Below, piece after piece: positions 11,833 to 22,399 of a stretch of DNA of 64,000 nucleotides. The notes beneath the pieces were generated by a model, which searched no databases, was not told the origin of the DNA, and worked only from the letters and a program-made list of their open reading frames with translations. How positions within the stretch are numbered: the first letter of the stretch is position 1; the number at the start of each line of letters is the position of its first letter. Location of the stretch: the NCBI RefSeq assembly GCF_009914755.1, contig NC_060927.1; one strand, given 5' to 3'. The translations under genes and the position numbers were made by a program. The stretch comes from the human T2T-CHM13v2.0 reference genome, Homo sapiens.

Positions 11833-12654
11833 GGGATGCCTCATTTCTATTGTGCACTTAGTGAGCCCAACATTTCATCATGAATGGAAAAAGACCAACT
11901 TCTTAAATCCTGCTTTATTGTTAAACTAAGTACCTGTTTTGCTTGTTTTACGACATGATGATATGCCATACTGACGGTTTGGTGTGTTTCAAATGTGTGG
12001 GCAGCATAATGGGGTCCTGGTATTGGGAGTGACAGGGTTGGGGGTCACAGGGTCTTGCCTAGCTGTGTGCACGAAGCAGGGCCACCTGAAACAGCTGCTC
12101 TGAGGGCAGCAGATGGGCACAGTGGGTGCTGCTGGGCAGGAATTGGGCACAGACACTGACTAATGCCTGACAGTCTTCAGGTTCCTGGGGTTAGGGGTCA
12201 GCAGTCACAGAGCCACTCCTATCCATCCCTACCACCACCCATCCACACTCCTGACATCCACACCACTGACCTAGGTTTCATAGAGCAGGACAATGTCATA
12301 CTACAGGGCATGAGGCACCAATGGGCACCAGGAGAGAAGGGCAACCCTCACTGACCACATGGGCAAAGTCAAGCCAGTCCAAAATACAGGACCAGCTGCC
12401 CATGCAGGGGAAAGGGCTTTTCTGGGGCCTGCATGTGAGACACAGACTTCCCATTCCAGGACCTACGACCCTCAGGGCTTAGACTCCCATTCCCTCAAGA
12501 ACCCAAGGATCTGTATTCCCAGGCCCTTATCCCTCTTAAGATCCTAGTGACCTGTGACTTCATCTTGTTCCCCAGACTCCTCACTTTGGGCAGCTGGTGC
12601 CTGTAATGGTCTTGCCAGACAGGGTGGAGGGCACATCAAGGGTCATGCTATCAT

Positions 12655-12972
12655 CCAGGTGTGGTGGCTCATGCCTGTAATCCCAGCACTTTGGAAAGCC
12701 AAGGCGGGCAGATCACCTGAGGTCAGGAGTTCGAGACCAGCCTGGCCAACAAGGTGAAACCCCGTATCTACTAAAAATACAAAAACTAGTCACGTGTGGT
12801 GGCAGGCACCTGTAATCCCAGTGATTTGGGAGGCTGAGGCAGGAAAATAGCTTGAACCCAGGAGGCACAGGTTGCAATGAGCCAAGATCATGCCATTGCA
12901 CTCCAGCCTGGACGACAAGAGTGAAATTCCATCTCAAAACAAACAAACAAACAAACAAAACAAAACAAAAAA
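12655..12972 (+). mobile_element. Alu
   Basis: Consensus sequence with an (AAAC)n tail. Confidence 0.9.
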
Positions 12973-13367
12973 CAGCGTGATGCTATCTCTGAAGTCGGGG
13001 CTGAAGCCAGTCAGAGGCAGTCCCTGGGGCTTCTGTACAGTGGAAAGGAGCAGGCCAGGGGGCTCCCTCGAAGGAAGTGGGAGTCCTAGTCCTTTCCCAT
13101 ACTGTCCTGGGAATAATATGGCCTCTGTCCAAGACACTGAACTTTTGACCATGCTGACACCCATACCTGGATTTCCAAGTCTTTCCAACCCTGCTCAGAC
13201 TCTTCCTCCAAATAGTTATCTGGACGTTCACTTCTTCCAGTGAGCCCCAGTGTCTGAGCTTTGATTTCTTTCTGCTTCTGACCCTCCTGATACTTATACT
13301 TGCTGGAGAACCTGGCCAAGTTTGGCTTCAGCTGTGGCCAAGGGCAGCACAGAAATACCCAGATTAG

Positions 13368-13680
13368 ACCAGGCGCCATGTGGCACGCCTATAATCCCAG
13401 CACTTTGAGAGGCCAAGGTGGGCGGATCACCTGAGGTCAGGAGTTCGAGACCAGCCTAGCCAATATGGTGAAACTTCGTCTCTACTAAAAATACAAAAAT
13501 TCGCCAGGTGTGGTGGTGCATGCTTGTAATCTCAGCTACTCGGGAGACTGAGGCAGGAGAATCGCTTGAACCCGGGAGGCGGAGGTTGCAGTGAGCTGAG
13601 TTTGTGTCATTGCATGCCACCCTGCCTGGGCGACACAGCAAGACGCTGTCTCAAATTAAAAAAAAAGAAAAAAAAGAAAA
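13368..13680 (+). mobile_element. AluS-type element inserted in a fossil laminin exon
   Basis: Perfect 17-bp TSD agaaatacccagattag at 13351-13367 and 13681-13697. Confidence 0.92.
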
Positions 13681-14181
13681 AGAAATACCCAGATTAGTGC
13701 TCATGGCAGTGGCAGCCACAGAGGTGGGGGTGGGATATGCAGAGACTCACCACTGCAGAATACCTGAGGGAGCACAGAGGTGAGGAGGGGTCAGGGTGAA
13801 GTCTTGATTCTTGCCATTTGACCATGAATTTCAGGCCCCGCCCTGTACCTGTTACTGTAGCATCTGCAAAGTTAAAGTCACAGGGCCAGCAGCCTGGGTG
13901 GGGGCGGGGTCACTGCCCAGACCCTAGAACTCAGGCTGTAGGAGACTGTAGTTGGGTTGGGGAAGGCAAGAAGATCTGGACAGGAAGAGGAGGGGAGGGG
14001 CCTGATAAGTCTTATATTGGGTCTGCCTATGGTGGGAAAAGGGGTGAGAAAGGGCCTGAATGTTCCTCTGACTGCATCTGAAAGTGAGAGAGAAGATCAT
14101 GGTGCACTCCTGAGTAACTTCACAGAGAGACATAAGAAGGAGATGAGGACACAACCAGGGTTAAATAAAAGTTAAGCCAAG

Positions 14182-19700: not shown

Positions 19701-19857
19701 TGCTGTACAGGTTTGTAGCCTAGGAGTAATAGGCTATACCAGATAGTCTAGAAGTGTGGTAGGCTATACAAGTACACTCTAGATGTTTCCACAACGATGA
19801 AACTGCGTAATGACACATTTCTCAGAATGTATCCCCATCATTAAACAATGCATGGTC
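16770..19857. mobile_element. Tigger3/Golem-family DNA transposon fossil (Tigger3b-like), interrupted by an Alu cluster (~16949-19244)
   Basis: End cacaacgatgaaactgcgtaatgacacatttctcagaatgtatccccatcattaaacaatgcatg resembles the Tigger3/MER7 terminus; AT-rich internal segments lie between the Alus. Confidence 0.7.
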
Positions 19858-21299
19858 ACAGATGGGTTATTTATCAACTGTCTTTCTGACTTGATGTCCG
19901 TTCCAAGAAGGCAGATACCTTTTCTGCTGCTTCCCATCAAACACTGCCCAGAAGATGCCTGACAGAGTGTACAGCTCAATGGGTGCTTGTTATATGAATA
20001 CATAGGTAAAGGAATGGGTCCATGGCTCCTCTCCCTGCTCCACATCTTAGGTCCATTACTAAGATACAGGAGGTCCGCTACCTCCTGTATCTTTCCTCTG
20101 CAGGCCTCTCCTCTTTTCTGATCTGAGGTGAAAAACAACAGCAGCTTGCAGACCTACCATGAGGGCTCAAGGTGAGCAGCTGGTAATAACTGCAGTTAAG
20201 GGGGGCAAGGAGTGCCCATTGGGTGTAGAGAAAAAACTAGTTTGGCGTTTGTCCTGCTCTGGTACCCTCCTGGCCTGATTCTGGGCTCTCCTACTAGGAG
20301 TCTTTAACAAAGACTTCTTTACAAGGAAGGTGTTACATCCAGAGATGCCCTGGTGCCACCTAGAGGCAGCTGCAGGGACAAAGGGCAAAGGTCAGGGTCA
20401 TGAATGGAGTTGGAGGAGCAATGACAGGTAGACTATGACAGGGGCAGTGATGGGGGCCCACAAAGGGAAGAGTTATGAGGGGCAGTGATAGTAGAGACGG
20501 GGGACAGGTATGAGGAAATGAGGAACTATGATGGGGCCTCACAAAGGGATTCAATAATGGGGCAGAGTCATTATTGAAATTGTTCCCCATGCCAGTCCCT
20601 ATACACTGGGTACAAGTATGGGGAACAGTGATGGGGTATAAATGGGAGGCCACAAAAAGGACCATGATGGGGCAGGGCTGGGGAACGGCCCTGGAAGACT
20701 GAGCTTGCCTACTTGCCCTGTCCCACCGGTGCCCACTCGGGGCAGGGCCTGTTTCCCCCAGTATCTACAAGCTCTGTCCTGACACACAAATGGTACAGGA
20801 TTGCCTCTGGGGATGATTACCCTGAATCTCAGGGTTGTTTGGATCCTCTACTGGAATGGCTGGGTCCAGAACTTTGAAAATCACCTGGGAGAAAGAAGCA
20901 GGTTTGAGCATCCTATTTCACCTCAGGGCCCAACCCCCCTTTCCCTGGGCCTGACCTTGCCCTCAGTGGAAGGCTTGATGTCTGAGTAATGCTGGTCACA
21001 GACGAGGTCACTGACTCTGTGGCTAGGGGTAGGAGGGATCCCAAGAAAGAGGCTTGGGCAGTTGTGAACAAAGTATCTGTACATGTGCCAGGAGCGGCAT
21101 GGTCCACTGAGTGCTCAAGGAGCACAGCTGCTAGGTGGAATGTCTGGGGAGTCACTAGGGACAAGCATCACTGGTGGCCATCAAATAGGGAAGCACAGGG
21201 TCAGCACTTGCTAAGCAAGCCTTCAGGCTGGGGCACTGGGAAAGTCTTGAGGTGGGTGAAGTAGAAGGCACCCTCTAGGTCCAGCTGGATAGTGATGTT

Positions 21300-22204
21300 T
21301 TTTCTTTTTTTTTTGAGATGGAGTCTTGCTCTGTTGCCCAGGCTGGAGTGCAGTGGCACGATCTCGGTTCACTGCAACCTCCACCTCCCAGGTTCAAGCG
21401 ATTCTCCTGCCTCAGCCTCCCAAGTAGCTAGGACTACAGGTATGTGCCAGCACGCCTGGCTAATTTTTTATATTTTTCTTTTTTGAGACAGAGTCTCGCT
21501 CTGTCGCCCAGGGTGGAGTGCAGTGGCGCAATCTTGGCTCACTGCAAGCTCCGCAGCCCGGGTTCACGCCATCCTCCTGCCTCAGCCTCCTGAGTAGCTG
21601 GGACTGCAGGCGCACGCCGCCATGCCTGGCTAATTTTTTGTATTTTTAGTAGAGACAGAGTTTCACTGTGTTAGCCAGGATGGTCTCGACCTCCTGACCT
21701 TGTGATCCACCCACCTCGGCCTCCCAAAGTGCTGAGATTACAGGTGTGAGCCACCACACCCGGACAATTTTTTGTATTTTTAGTAGAGACAGGGTTTCAC
21801 CATATTAGCCAGGTTGGTCTCGATCTCCTGACCTCGTGATCCACCCGCCTCGGCCTCCCAAAGTGCTGGGATTACAGGCATGAGCGACTGTGCCCGGCCT
21901 TGATGGTAACTTTTTTTTTTTTTGAGATGGAGTCTTGCTCTGTCGCCCAGGCTGGAGTGCAGTGGTGTCATCTCAGCTCACTGCAAGCTCTGCCTCCCTG
22001 GTTCACGCCATTCTCCTGCCTCAGCCTCCTGAGTAGCTGGGACTACAGGCGACCGCCACCACGCCCAGCTAATTTTTTGTATTTTTAGTAGAGACAGGGT
22101 TTCACCGTGTTAGCCAGGGTGGTCTCGATCTCCTGACCTTGTGATCCGCCCGCCTCAGCCTCCCAAAGTGCTGGGATTACAGGCATGAGCCATTGCGCCC
22201 GGCT
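21300..22204 (-). mobile_element. Alu cluster inserted in the fossil GVENVTIQLDLE exon
   Basis: Target-site echoes tgatggtgacatttt (~22204), tgatggtaactttt (~21901) and gatagtgatgtttt (~21288). Confidence 0.88.
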
Positions 22205-22399
22205 GATGGTGACATTTTCAACACCTGCAGCCATAGGGCTAGTGAGTGACTAGGCCCTGACCCCGTACCTCCACACGTAGGCACACTGCACCCTCACCAC
22301 TCTCTGCCTACCAGGTCTTGTTGCCACCACGGCCACTCTGGGAGATCACGTTCTTAATGTCATGGCCTCCCTGGTCGCAAGAGTCACAGGGGCAATTCT

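What the first reader, a model, noticed from the sequence alone, without database searches (positions are those of the whole stretch)
12059..22224. The fossil looks like an ancient paralog, not a recent LAMB2 copy
Seen: several exons differ from LAMB2 by many conservative substitutions while staying in frame: VIFKVLDPAIPVEDP versus VIYRVLDPAIPIPDP; GVENVTIQLDLE, which matches my recollection of LAMB1 rather than LAMB2 (GIPAVTIQ); and an L4 exon EPEDCQALVSVCAQFLPSSTHCAHLLPSEQLFQ barely alignable to LAMB2. Inference: long evolution under purifying selection as a distinct chain before inactivation.
Basis: inference. Interest (0 to 1): 0.7.

Follow-up and report, generated by a model that had tools for sequence, protein, structure and literature searches.

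The report
Dead fifth laminin beta-chain gene
The stretch upstream of human LAMB2 is the decayed remnant of a separate, very old laminin beta-chain gene (LAMB2L) that is still intact in bats, ruminants, tenrecs, marsupials, birds and fish, not a recent broken copy of LAMB2.

Summary
One of them, GVENVTIQLDLE, is a stitched reading across a 0.9-kb Alu block.

The fossil is much larger than reported. Collinear pseudo-exons run from window 23050 to 3115 bases before the window start, about 26.2 kb. They cover nearly a whole 1800-residue long laminin beta chain and end about 1.7 kb upstream of LAMB2.

It is 62% identical to intact 'laminin beta-2-like' (LAMB2L) proteins of other placentals. It is only 30-33% identical to human LAMB2, LAMB1 and LAMB4. 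Trees place it inside placental LAMB2L, within an orthogroup that spans sharks to mammals. Joining it to LAMB2 costs 1006 log-likelihood units.

LAMB2L groups with LAMB4, not LAMB2. The gene order matches the LAMB4-LAMB1 pair on chr7.

The human copy carries at least 19 in-frame stops and has lost 24 of 102 conserved cysteines. Intact orthologues have lost none.

This is an old unitary pseudogene. dN/dS could not be computed.

The parts
22861..23050 (-). N-terminal pseudo-exon (mature N-terminus and start of the LN domain). Two abutting blocks, 22925-23050 and 22861-22923, lie in different frames, which indicates a frameshift.
   Evidence: tblastn of P0028 residues 43-113 and P0008 residues 7-65; frames listed.
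22298..22388 (-). LN-domain pseudo-exon reading [30 protein letters not shown], with an in-frame TAG at 22308-22310. A GT donor follows at 22296-22297.
22225..22297 (-). Retained short intron with GT..AG ends. It shows the copy is non-processed.
   Evidence: Sequence read.
22205..22224 (-). First part of the next LN exon, reading (G)VENVTI.
21302..22204 (-). Block of Alu elements inserted in the coding exon. Near-full-length copies lie at 21911-22203 and 21464-21763, with further pieces. The block is flanked by the 14-base repeats 22205-22218 and 21288-21301, alike at 11 of 14 bases.
21204..21301 (-). Rest of the split LN exon, reading [17 protein letters not shown]. It is followed by about 90 bases absent from the orthologues, containing two stops.
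20953..21167 (-). LN-domain pseudo-exon reading ...TFHLAAVLLEHSVDHA..SWHMYRYFVHNC...STEGKV. It is 72-79% identical to intact LAMB2L.
   Evidence: Pfam Laminin_N, E 7e-9.
20822..20908 (-). LN-domain pseudo-exon containing VIFKVLDPAIPVEDPNNPEIQ.
16140..16361 (-). End of the LN domain and start of LE1, reading ELLHVTNLCVNFSKLHTLGD...CLCLGHTSKC. It is 72-83% identical to intact LAMB2L and 53% identical to human LAMB2.
15177..16107 (-). LE1-LE4 pseudo-exons with retained introns and several stops. Together with the previous part, this is all that RefSeq annotates as LAMB2P1 (14928-16470).
   Evidence: Pfam EGF_laminin on 15177-15287, E 0.0011, below the curated cut-off.
12065..13072 (-). Laminin IV type B (domain IV) pseudo-exons at 12986-13072, 12582-12644, 12274-12438 and 12065-12187. 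Two carry in-frame stops.
   Evidence: 61-73% identity to P0028 residues 599-742. P0028 residues 661-840 are Pfam LAMININ_IV_B.
10356..10499 (-). Weak candidate domain-IV pseudo-exon.
   Evidence: tblastn with P0008 residues 688-734, 37.5% identity, E 0.009. Uncertain.
6105..7056 (-). End of domain IV and LE5-LE8 pseudo-exons (6870-7056, 6649-6768, 6105-6551), with stops and an insertion of 14 codons.
   Evidence: E 2e-57.
5585..5799 (-). LE pseudo-exon with a frame change near 5720.
4206..4396 (-). LE pseudo-exon with one stop and a frame change near 4340.
2150..2248 (-). LE pseudo-exon reading VTGQCPCWAASGSCKCSQLQNGYWGDPEQECRG.
1..474 (-). Last LE repeat and start of the coiled-coil arm, with stops. 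The fossil continues outside the window to -3115 (C3:49162885). There the final exon ends ...KYATC, about 1.7 kb upstream of the LAMB2 5' end.
   Evidence: locus L006.

Best explanation
The region is a non-processed unitary pseudogene. It is the human orthologue of LAMB2L, a distinct long laminin beta chain with an LN domain, 13 LE repeats, a laminin IV type B domain and a coiled-coil arm. The gene lay head-to-tail just upstream of LAMB2.

The LAMB2L lineage separated from LAMB2 before the jawed vertebrates diverged. Its closest relative is LAMB4. This fits an ancestral tandem pair that was duplicated as a block into LAMB4-LAMB1 on chr7 and LAMB2L-LAMB2 on chr3 (inferred).

The gene stayed under purifying selection in many lineages and is still intact in several placental orders. 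On the line to humans constraint was lost long ago, probably around or before the primate radiation (rough inference). Since then the locus has accumulated stops, frameshifts, lost cysteines and Alu insertions. Only an unspliced fragment is annotated as transcribed. No protein function remains in humans.
For: Extent
- Collinear minus-strand matches to intact LAMB2L proteins run from 23050 to -3115, covering residues 43 to 1846 of P0028.

Identity
- The fossil is 57-62% identical to seven placental LAMB2L proteins, against 32.7% to human LAMB2, 29.7% to LAMB1 and 31.4% to LAMB4.
- A single exon is 73-88% identical to 31 database proteins, against 53% to LAMB2.

Phylogeny
- The fossil lies inside placental LAMB2L with SH-aLRT 100, next to bats and deer.
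- Fossil plus LAMB2 as one clade is rejected: log-likelihood difference 1005.7, p 6e-52.
- LAMB4 plus LAMB2L has SH-aLRT 99-100 in four quick trees.
- LAMB2L plus LAMB2 as one clade is rejected after chimeric models are removed: log-likelihood difference 115.8, p 7e-39.

Labels
- The chr7 exon at 109.424 Mb matches proteins named beta-4 in primates at 96%.
- The chr7 exon at 109.299 Mb matches PDB laminin beta-1.

Gene order
- Both human pairs are on the minus strand, with the B4/B2L-type gene upstream.
- Read-through gene models join LAMB2L to LAMB2 in Polypterus and Chaetura, and LAMB4 to LAMB1 in Columba and Coregonus.
- Passages in PMC9504374 report teleost lamb2l-lamb2 and lamb4-lamb1a tandems. 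Passages in PMC4549328 report zebrafish lamb1a next to lamb4b.

Decay
- There are 19 in-frame stops among 1628 aligned codons.
- At columns invariant in the ten other mammals, 150 of 499 differ in the human copy, against 1.0-4.9% for each intact therian.
- The human copy has lost 24 of 102 conserved cysteines, against 0 of 117 in the intact orthologues (1 of 118 in Rhynchocyon).
- The human end branch is 0.52, against 0.06-0.17 for the intact placentals.

Non-processed
- Introns are retained.

No other human copy
- The only human-genome matches are the fossil itself, LAMB2, LAMB1, LAMB4 and more distant laminin or netrin-like loci.
Against: - No orthologous DNA from other species was available. 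Positional orthology therefore rests on fused gene models and on passages about teleosts, and no dN/dS or shared-lesion dating was possible.
- Support values come from quick searches (SH-aLRT). Five bootstrap ('careful') searches did not finish.
- With two suspect bird models still in the set, the AU test did not reject LAMB2L plus LAMB2 (p 0.063).
- Under the mixture model the order of LAMB1, LAMB2 and (LAMB4+LAMB2L) is unresolved.
- Many rows fail the composition test.
- The human rows were built by projecting tblastn matches and masking stretches under 20% local identity. This may shorten the human branch or favour likeness to the reference.
- The 'intact' orthologues are computational predictions, and two of the seven placentals used are flagged LOW QUALITY.
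Confidence: 0.92

Rival explanations
1. A recent (mammalian or primate) tandem duplicate of LAMB2 that then decayed, as the name 'LAMB2 pseudogene 1' suggests.
For: It lies next to LAMB2 in the same orientation. The official name and the RefSeq annotation describe it this way.
Against: - It is 32.7% identical to LAMB2 but 61.7% identical to LAMB2L.
- The AU test gives p 6e-52.
- There is no intron similarity to LAMB2. Only 7 of 155 blastn hits are not Alu.
- Intact orthologues exist from sharks to placentals.
Confidence: 0.01
2. An ancient paralogue, but one that arose by tandem duplication of LAMB2 after the vertebrate genome duplications. On this reading it is LAMB2's sister, and LAMB4 arose independently beside LAMB1.
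For: The tandem arrangement at both loci would equally fit two independent duplications. With chimeric bird models included, the AU test did not reject LAMB2L plus LAMB2 (p 0.063).
Against: - LAMB4 plus LAMB2L has SH-aLRT 99-100 in four trees, under both LG+G4 and the C20 mixture.
- After removal of the chimeric Otus model and the doubtful Chaetura part, LAMB2L plus LAMB2 is rejected: log-likelihood difference 115.8, p 7e-39.
Confidence: 0.12
3. The locus still has a role in humans, as a non-coding RNA or a regulatory element, rather than being inert.
For: RefSeq lists an unspliced transcript, NR_004405.1, over 14928-16470 (hub annotation). LAMB2P1 appears in differential-expression lists of six papers (search listing only).
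Against: Nothing here shows constraint. Replacement at otherwise invariant codons is 30%, and Alus are dense across the locus. No test of RNA function was possible.
Confidence: 0.1

Closest known systems
LAMB2L ('laminin subunit beta-2-like', zebrafish lamb2l) orthogroup
   Same: - The domain order is the same: Laminin_N, EGF_laminin repeats, LAMININ_IV_B and a coiled coil.
- The fossil is 57-62% identical to placental members.
- It nests inside the clade.
- It has the same position upstream of LAMB2 as in the fused Polypterus and Chaetura models and in teleosts.
   Different: The human copy is dead. It has at least 19 in-frame stops, at least five frame changes between abutting blocks, an Alu block inside an exon, and 24 of 102 conserved cysteines lost.
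Human LAMB2 (laminin beta-2)
   Same: Both are long beta chains. They are immediate neighbours on the same strand.
   Different: Identity is only 32.7%. The two fall in separate clades, and the introns share no similarity.
Human LAMB4 (laminin beta-4), upstream of LAMB1 on chr7
   Same: It is the sister lineage of LAMB2L in all four quick trees. It holds the same upstream position in its tandem pair.
   Different: Identity to the fossil is 31.4%. LAMB4 is intact in primates. Rhynchocyon, Phyllostomus, Dama, Hippopotamus and Elephantulus have both a beta-4 and a beta-2-like protein.
RefSeq LAMB2P1 / LAMB2L as first described (Durkin et al. 1999; recalled, not seen)
   Same: It is the same locus, transcribed and non-processed. 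By recall, it was described as similar to LAMB2 exons 8-12.
   Different: The annotation covers 1.5 kb (14928-16470). The fossil found here covers about 26.2 kb and almost the entire coding length.

Membership tests
Long laminin beta chain | N-terminal LN domain (Pfam Laminin_N) | tested here: met
   Window 20953-21096 scores E 7e-9 and 35.9 bits, above the cut-off of 25.9. Window 16140-16361 scores E 2.6e-4, below the cut-off. The region aligns to the LN domain of P0028 (residues 70-296).
Long laminin beta chain | Laminin EGF-like (LE) repeats with eight cysteines each | tested here: inconclusive
   LE pseudo-exons align to intact LAMB2L. The one fragment scanned scored 19.5 bits, under the cut-off of 21. 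24 of 102 conserved cysteines are lost. The repeats are recognisable but broken.
Long laminin beta chain | Laminin IV type B domain between the LE blocks | tested here: inconclusive
   The 41-residue fragment 12065-12187 gave no Pfam hit. Blocks between 12065 and 13072 and at 6870-7056 align at 37-73% to P0028 residues 599-890. P0028 residues 661-840 are LAMININ_IV_B.
Long laminin beta chain | C-terminal coiled-coil arm ending in a cysteine | tested here: met
   Blocks from window 474 to -3115 align to residues 1208-1846 of P0028. The last exon ends ...KYATC. Most of this lies outside the window.
LAMB2 orthogroup | Groups with LAMB2 of other vertebrates in a tree | tested here: not met
   AU test: log-likelihood difference 1005.7, p 6e-52. 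Identity is 32.7%.
LAMB2L orthogroup | Groups with LAMB2L proteins and branches where the species tree predicts | tested here: met
   It lies inside placental LAMB2L with SH-aLRT 100, beside Laurasiatheria and outside Afrotheria.
LAMB2L orthogroup | Same genomic position, immediately upstream of LAMB2 on the same strand | tested here: inconclusive
   The human position is shown. For other species there is only indirect evidence: fused models in Polypterus and Chaetura and passages on teleost synteny. No genome alignment was made.
Processed (retrotransposed) pseudogene | No introns, poly-A tail, cDNA-like contiguity | tested here: not met
   The exons are spread over 26 kb. One retained 73-base intron has GT..AG ends.
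Unitary pseudogene | No intact copy elsewhere in the same genome, and intact orthologues in other species | tested here: met
   Human-genome searches find only the fossil, LAMB2, LAMB1, LAMB4 and more distant loci. One search used a stricter first look, so weak matches could have been missed. Intact orthologues are listed.

The most novel reading that the evidence does not exclude
Mammals ancestrally had a fifth long laminin beta chain, LAMB2L, the duplicate partner of LAMB4. It is still a working gene in bats, ruminants, hippo, shrews, afrotherian insectivores, marsupials and platypus. It was lost in the Euarchontoglires stem, or at least early on the primate line, and probably independently elsewhere. 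If so, the human- and mouse-based catalogue of laminin trimers is incomplete for mammals as a class. The LAMB2L-LAMB2 and LAMB4-LAMB1 pairs would descend from one tandem pair that predates the vertebrate genome duplications.
Probability: 0.6. Interest if true: 0.6.

Novelty: new member of a known kind. Interest (0 to 1): 0.45.

Why it matters
The official name and annotation present this locus as a small broken copy of LAMB2. The evidence here shows it is the full-length grave of a separate gene.

That changes how the laminin beta family is counted. Jawed vertebrates have LAMB1, LAMB2, LAMB4 and LAMB2L as long chains, and humans have lost one of them.

It also points to mammals such as bat, cow, tenrec and opossum in which an unstudied beta chain could be examined for expression and trimer partners.

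Practically, it explains why sequence from this region aligns poorly to LAMB2, and it warns that several database models in this family are chimeric or fused.

The locus itself, and zebrafish lamb2l, are already known. The gain is therefore one of interpretation and extent, not a new kind of element.

Tried and rejected
- Bootstrap ('careful') trees. Five attempts did not finish on the one-CPU machine. Only quick-search SH-aLRT values and AU tests are reported.
- Labelling database representatives by identity to single human exons. This was unreliable, because each 3-kb locus holds several exons. It was replaced by whole-gene chaining and by trees.
- The Otus 'laminin beta 2' model as a LAMB2 reference. 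It proved chimeric, with a LAMB2L front and a LAMB2 back. It was dropped, together with the doubtful second half of the Chaetura model. In one search five further rows (Megalops, Emydura, Geotrypetes, rep146, rep174) were dropped to save time, and five named LAMB4 proteins were added.
- dN/dS. It could not be computed because only proteins of other species were available.
- Dating. I used a rough proxy instead. Replacement at invariant codons is 30%, and 23.5% at cysteines. By my own back-calculation this corresponds to about 0.10-0.16 neutral changes per base. That is at or above the non-CpG divergence of the oldest Alus in the window (0.12-0.16). The conversion, and any figure in years, rest on recalled rates.
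- Earlier findings of the scan.
- Papers not held. Sztal et al. 2011 and Fahey & Degnan 2012 could not be read. Durkin et al. 1999 was not looked up and is cited from recall. Any of the three may already state the orthology.
- Searches for a printed statement of unitary status or of LAMB4 sisterhood. The searches were 'LAMB2L', 'LAMB2P1', 'laminin' with 'unitary pseudogene', laminin gene family / LAMB4 / whole genome duplication, the beta-2-like phrases and evolution of laminin / LAMB4 / paralog. I found no such statement in the listings and passages read. One paper (PMC9504374, passages) attributes lamb2l to the teleost genome duplication.

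
Full report
OBSERVATION

- VIFKVLDPAIPVEDP lies at 20840-20884.
- The 'L4' peptide lies in ORF 12059-12190.
- GVENVTIQLDLE is split.

Reading the DNA shows how the third peptide is split.
- An exon ends ...NKTW-TAG-AESG at 22298, followed by a GT donor.
- A 73-base intron (22225-22297) ends in AG.
- The next exon reads (G)VENVTI up to 22205.
- About 0.9 kb of Alu sequence follows, starting with a typical Alu head and ending in a poly-A run.
- The exon resumes as [17 protein letters not shown] from 21299.
- Two 14-base copies flank the block and agree at 11 of 14 bases, as expected for an old target-site duplication.

WHAT IS THERE

The exon at 16200-16376 finds only four places in the human genome:
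- itself;
- the LAMB2 exon, at 53% identity;
- two exons on chr7, at 54% and 50% identity.

Against the protein database the same exon finds 31 proteins among 34 candidates, at 73-88% identity. Of these, 22 carry an organism name and 9 do not.
- The named ones come from tenrecs, elephant shrews, bats, ruminants, hippo and seals. None comes from a primate, rodent, lagomorph, tree shrew or colugo.
- Most are called 'laminin subunit beta-2-like'.
- Several are full length, at 1709-1881 residues.

tblastn of these intact proteins maps collinear minus-strand blocks from window 23050 down to the window start. The blocks continue in the fetched upstream stretch to window -3115, where the last exon ends ...KYATC.
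- This is about 26.2 kb and covers residues 43-1846 of the Rhinolophus protein.
- The end lies about 1.7 kb upstream of the LAMB2 5' end given in the hub annotation.

The intact orthologue has the full long-beta architecture: Laminin_N, 13 EGF_laminin stretches and LAMININ_IV_B.

WHICH GENE IT WAS

A search with the Echinops protein returned 1911 proteins at E up to 1e-20 among 7169 candidates, of which 120 were listed. In a first FastTree of 110 full-length proteins, every listed full-length one except the Otus model P0109 falls in a single clade. That clade branches roughly as the species do: cartilaginous fish, ray-finned fish, coelacanth, amphibians, sauropsids, platypus, marsupials, placentals. 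The sources name these proteins beta-1-like, beta-2-like or beta-4-like at random, which itself shows that they fit none of the named chains.

To anchor the named chains I used three sources.
- I fetched the human LAMB2, LAMB1 and LAMB4 loci.
- I ran an all-against-library HMMER search, which listed 150 unnamed representatives out of 6324 hits.
- I projected the human exons into the protein alignment.

The chr7 labels were checked. The exon at 109.424 Mb matches proteins named beta-4 in primates at 96%. The exon at 109.299 Mb matches PDB laminin beta-1.

The trees agree on the position of the fossil.
- In a quick maximum-likelihood tree of 68 rows and 1779 columns, the fossil sits inside placental LAMB2L (SH-aLRT 100), beside bats and deer and outside the two afrotherians.
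- Three further quick trees agree: 42 rows with the C20 mixture; 40 rows with LG+G4; and 40 rows with five named LAMB4 proteins added, again with the C20 mixture.
- Forcing the fossil to join LAMB2 costs 1005.7 log-likelihood units, AU p 6e-52.

Identity over about 1500 aligned codons tells the same story.

| Compared with | Identity |
|---|---|
| Rhinolophus LAMB2L | 61.7% |
| Other placental LAMB2L | 57-59% |
| Sarcophilus | 46.5% |
| Platypus | 41.2% |
| Human LAMB2 | 32.7% |
| Human LAMB4 | 31.4% |
| Human LAMB1 | 29.7% |

At the DNA level, 148 of 155 blastn hits between the fossil and the LAMB2 locus are Alu against Alu. The other 7 are exon cores of 26-152 bases at 78-92% identity. No intron similarity exists.

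RELATION TO THE OTHER BETA CHAINS

All four quick trees put LAMB2L with LAMB4 (SH-aLRT 99-100), apart from LAMB1 and LAMB2. Under LG+G4, LAMB1 and LAMB2 pair up (91-99). Under the mixture model that node is unresolved.

An AU test of the alternative, LAMB2L plus LAMB2 as one clade, first gave p 0.063. A sliding-window check then showed why.
- The Otus 'beta 2' model is chimeric: about 90% LAMB2L over its first 700 residues and LAMB2 after that.
- The second half of a Chaetura model is doubtful.
- Without these two rows the alternative is rejected: log-likelihood difference 115.8, p 7e-39.

The swing in p values, the unfinished bootstrap runs and the composition warnings mean this sister relation is well supported but not settled.

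Gene order fits.
- In humans both pairs are on the minus strand, with LAMB4 upstream of LAMB1 and the fossil upstream of LAMB2.
- Read-through gene models join LAMB2L to LAMB2 in Polypterus and Chaetura, and LAMB4 to LAMB1 in Columba and Coregonus.
- Passages in PMC9504374 and PMC4549328 report the same tandems in teleosts.

The simplest history is one tandem pair duplicated as a block. This is an inference. By recall, Durkin et al. 1999 called 3p21 and 7q22-q31 paralogous.

STATE OF DECAY AND AGE

The aligned human codons hold 19 in-frame stops among 1628. Abutting blocks change frame at least five times. Some stretches found no match, for example residues 522-598 of P0028.

The comparison at conserved positions is clear.

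| Measure | Human fossil | Each intact therian left out in turn |
|---|---|---|
| Differs at columns invariant in the other ten mammals | 150 of 499 (30.1%) | 1.0-4.9% (platypus 13.4%) |
| Conserved cysteines lost | 24 of 102 | 0 of 117 (1 of 118 in a LOW QUALITY model) |

So the gene is under clear purifying selection where it is intact, and it has been free of selection in the human line for a long time. The human end branch is 0.52 changes per column, against 0.06-0.17 for the intact placentals.

By my own rough conversion, these losses correspond to 0.10-0.16 neutral changes per base. That is at or above the most diverged Alus of the window (0.12-0.16 non-CpG divergence from the window consensus, 61 copies measured).

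The same kind of search that found no Euarchontoglires LAMB2L protein did find LAMB4 in many primates, rodents, Tupaia and Galeopterus. Their absence from the LAMB2L hits is therefore not a gap in the database.

Together this suggests loss around or before the primate radiation, possibly in the Euarchontoglires stem. No date can be given without orthologous DNA.

COMPARISON WITH WHAT IS KNOWN

The locus is a known, named, transcribed, non-processed pseudogene (hub annotation; Durkin et al. 1999, recalled). Zebrafish lamb2l is a known gene.
- A passage in PMC5785718 gives the usual count: four beta chains in humans, three in mice, six in zebrafish.
- A passage in PMC9504374 attributes lamb2l to the teleost genome duplication. 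The presence of LAMB2L in sharks, coelacanth and tetrapods contradicts this.
- A passage in PMC2185082 cites a further chicken beta chain (Ybot-Gonzalez 1995; Liu 1998). I could not tell whether that is LAMB2L or LAMB4.

In the listings and passages I read from six literature searches, I found no statement that human LAMB2P1 is a full-length unitary relic of this lineage or that the lineage is sister to LAMB4. Three key papers could not be read: two were not held and one was not looked up.

VERDICT

The finding is a re-reading and large extension of a known pseudogene. It is of moderate interest to laminin and gene-loss specialists.

Noticed in passing
Proteins P0109, P0035, P0106, P0039, P0036 (database models): The Otus 'laminin beta 2' model P0109 is a chimera of LAMB2L (first ~700 residues) and LAMB2. 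Four other models are read-through fusions of tandem neighbours: LAMB2L+LAMB2 in Polypterus and Chaetura, and LAMB4+LAMB1 in Columba and Coregonus. Such models can distort laminin trees. P0109 changed an AU p value from 0.063 to 7e-39.
   Followed up: yes
Proteins P0030 and P0018: 'Laminin subunit beta-4 [Pteropus alecto]' and 'beta-1-like [Myotis brandtii]' match the fossil's exon at 73% and 78%. They therefore appear to be misnamed LAMB2L fragments.
   Followed up: no
Therian LAMB2L proteins (for example P0028 compared with platypus P0034): The LAMB2L stems leading to mammals, therians and placentals are long (0.29, 0.36, 0.33). The Rhinolophus protein gives no Pfam 'LAMB1-4 helical domain' hit, whereas the platypus protein does. 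Yet every conserved cysteine is kept. This suggests fast but constrained change of this chain in therians.
   Followed up: partly
window 534-23425: 27 of the window's 61 near-full-length Alus lie inside the fossil's footprint, which is about 36% of the window. Non-CpG divergence from the window consensus ranges from 0.028 to 0.160, with a median of 0.069.
   Followed up: partly
window 21204-21250: After ...FYFTHL, about 90 bases absent from the orthologues precede the continuation ...TFHLAAVLLEHS. They hold two stops. The text partly echoes the following exon sequence (KTFPVPQPEGLL against QTFHLAAVLL). This may be a small internal duplication or a decayed intron.
   Followed up: no
Representative P0140 (unnamed): A full-length beta chain of unknown origin joins the LAMB4+LAMB2L group without belonging to either clade. 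If it comes from a jawless vertebrate, it could help time the tandem duplication.
   Followed up: no
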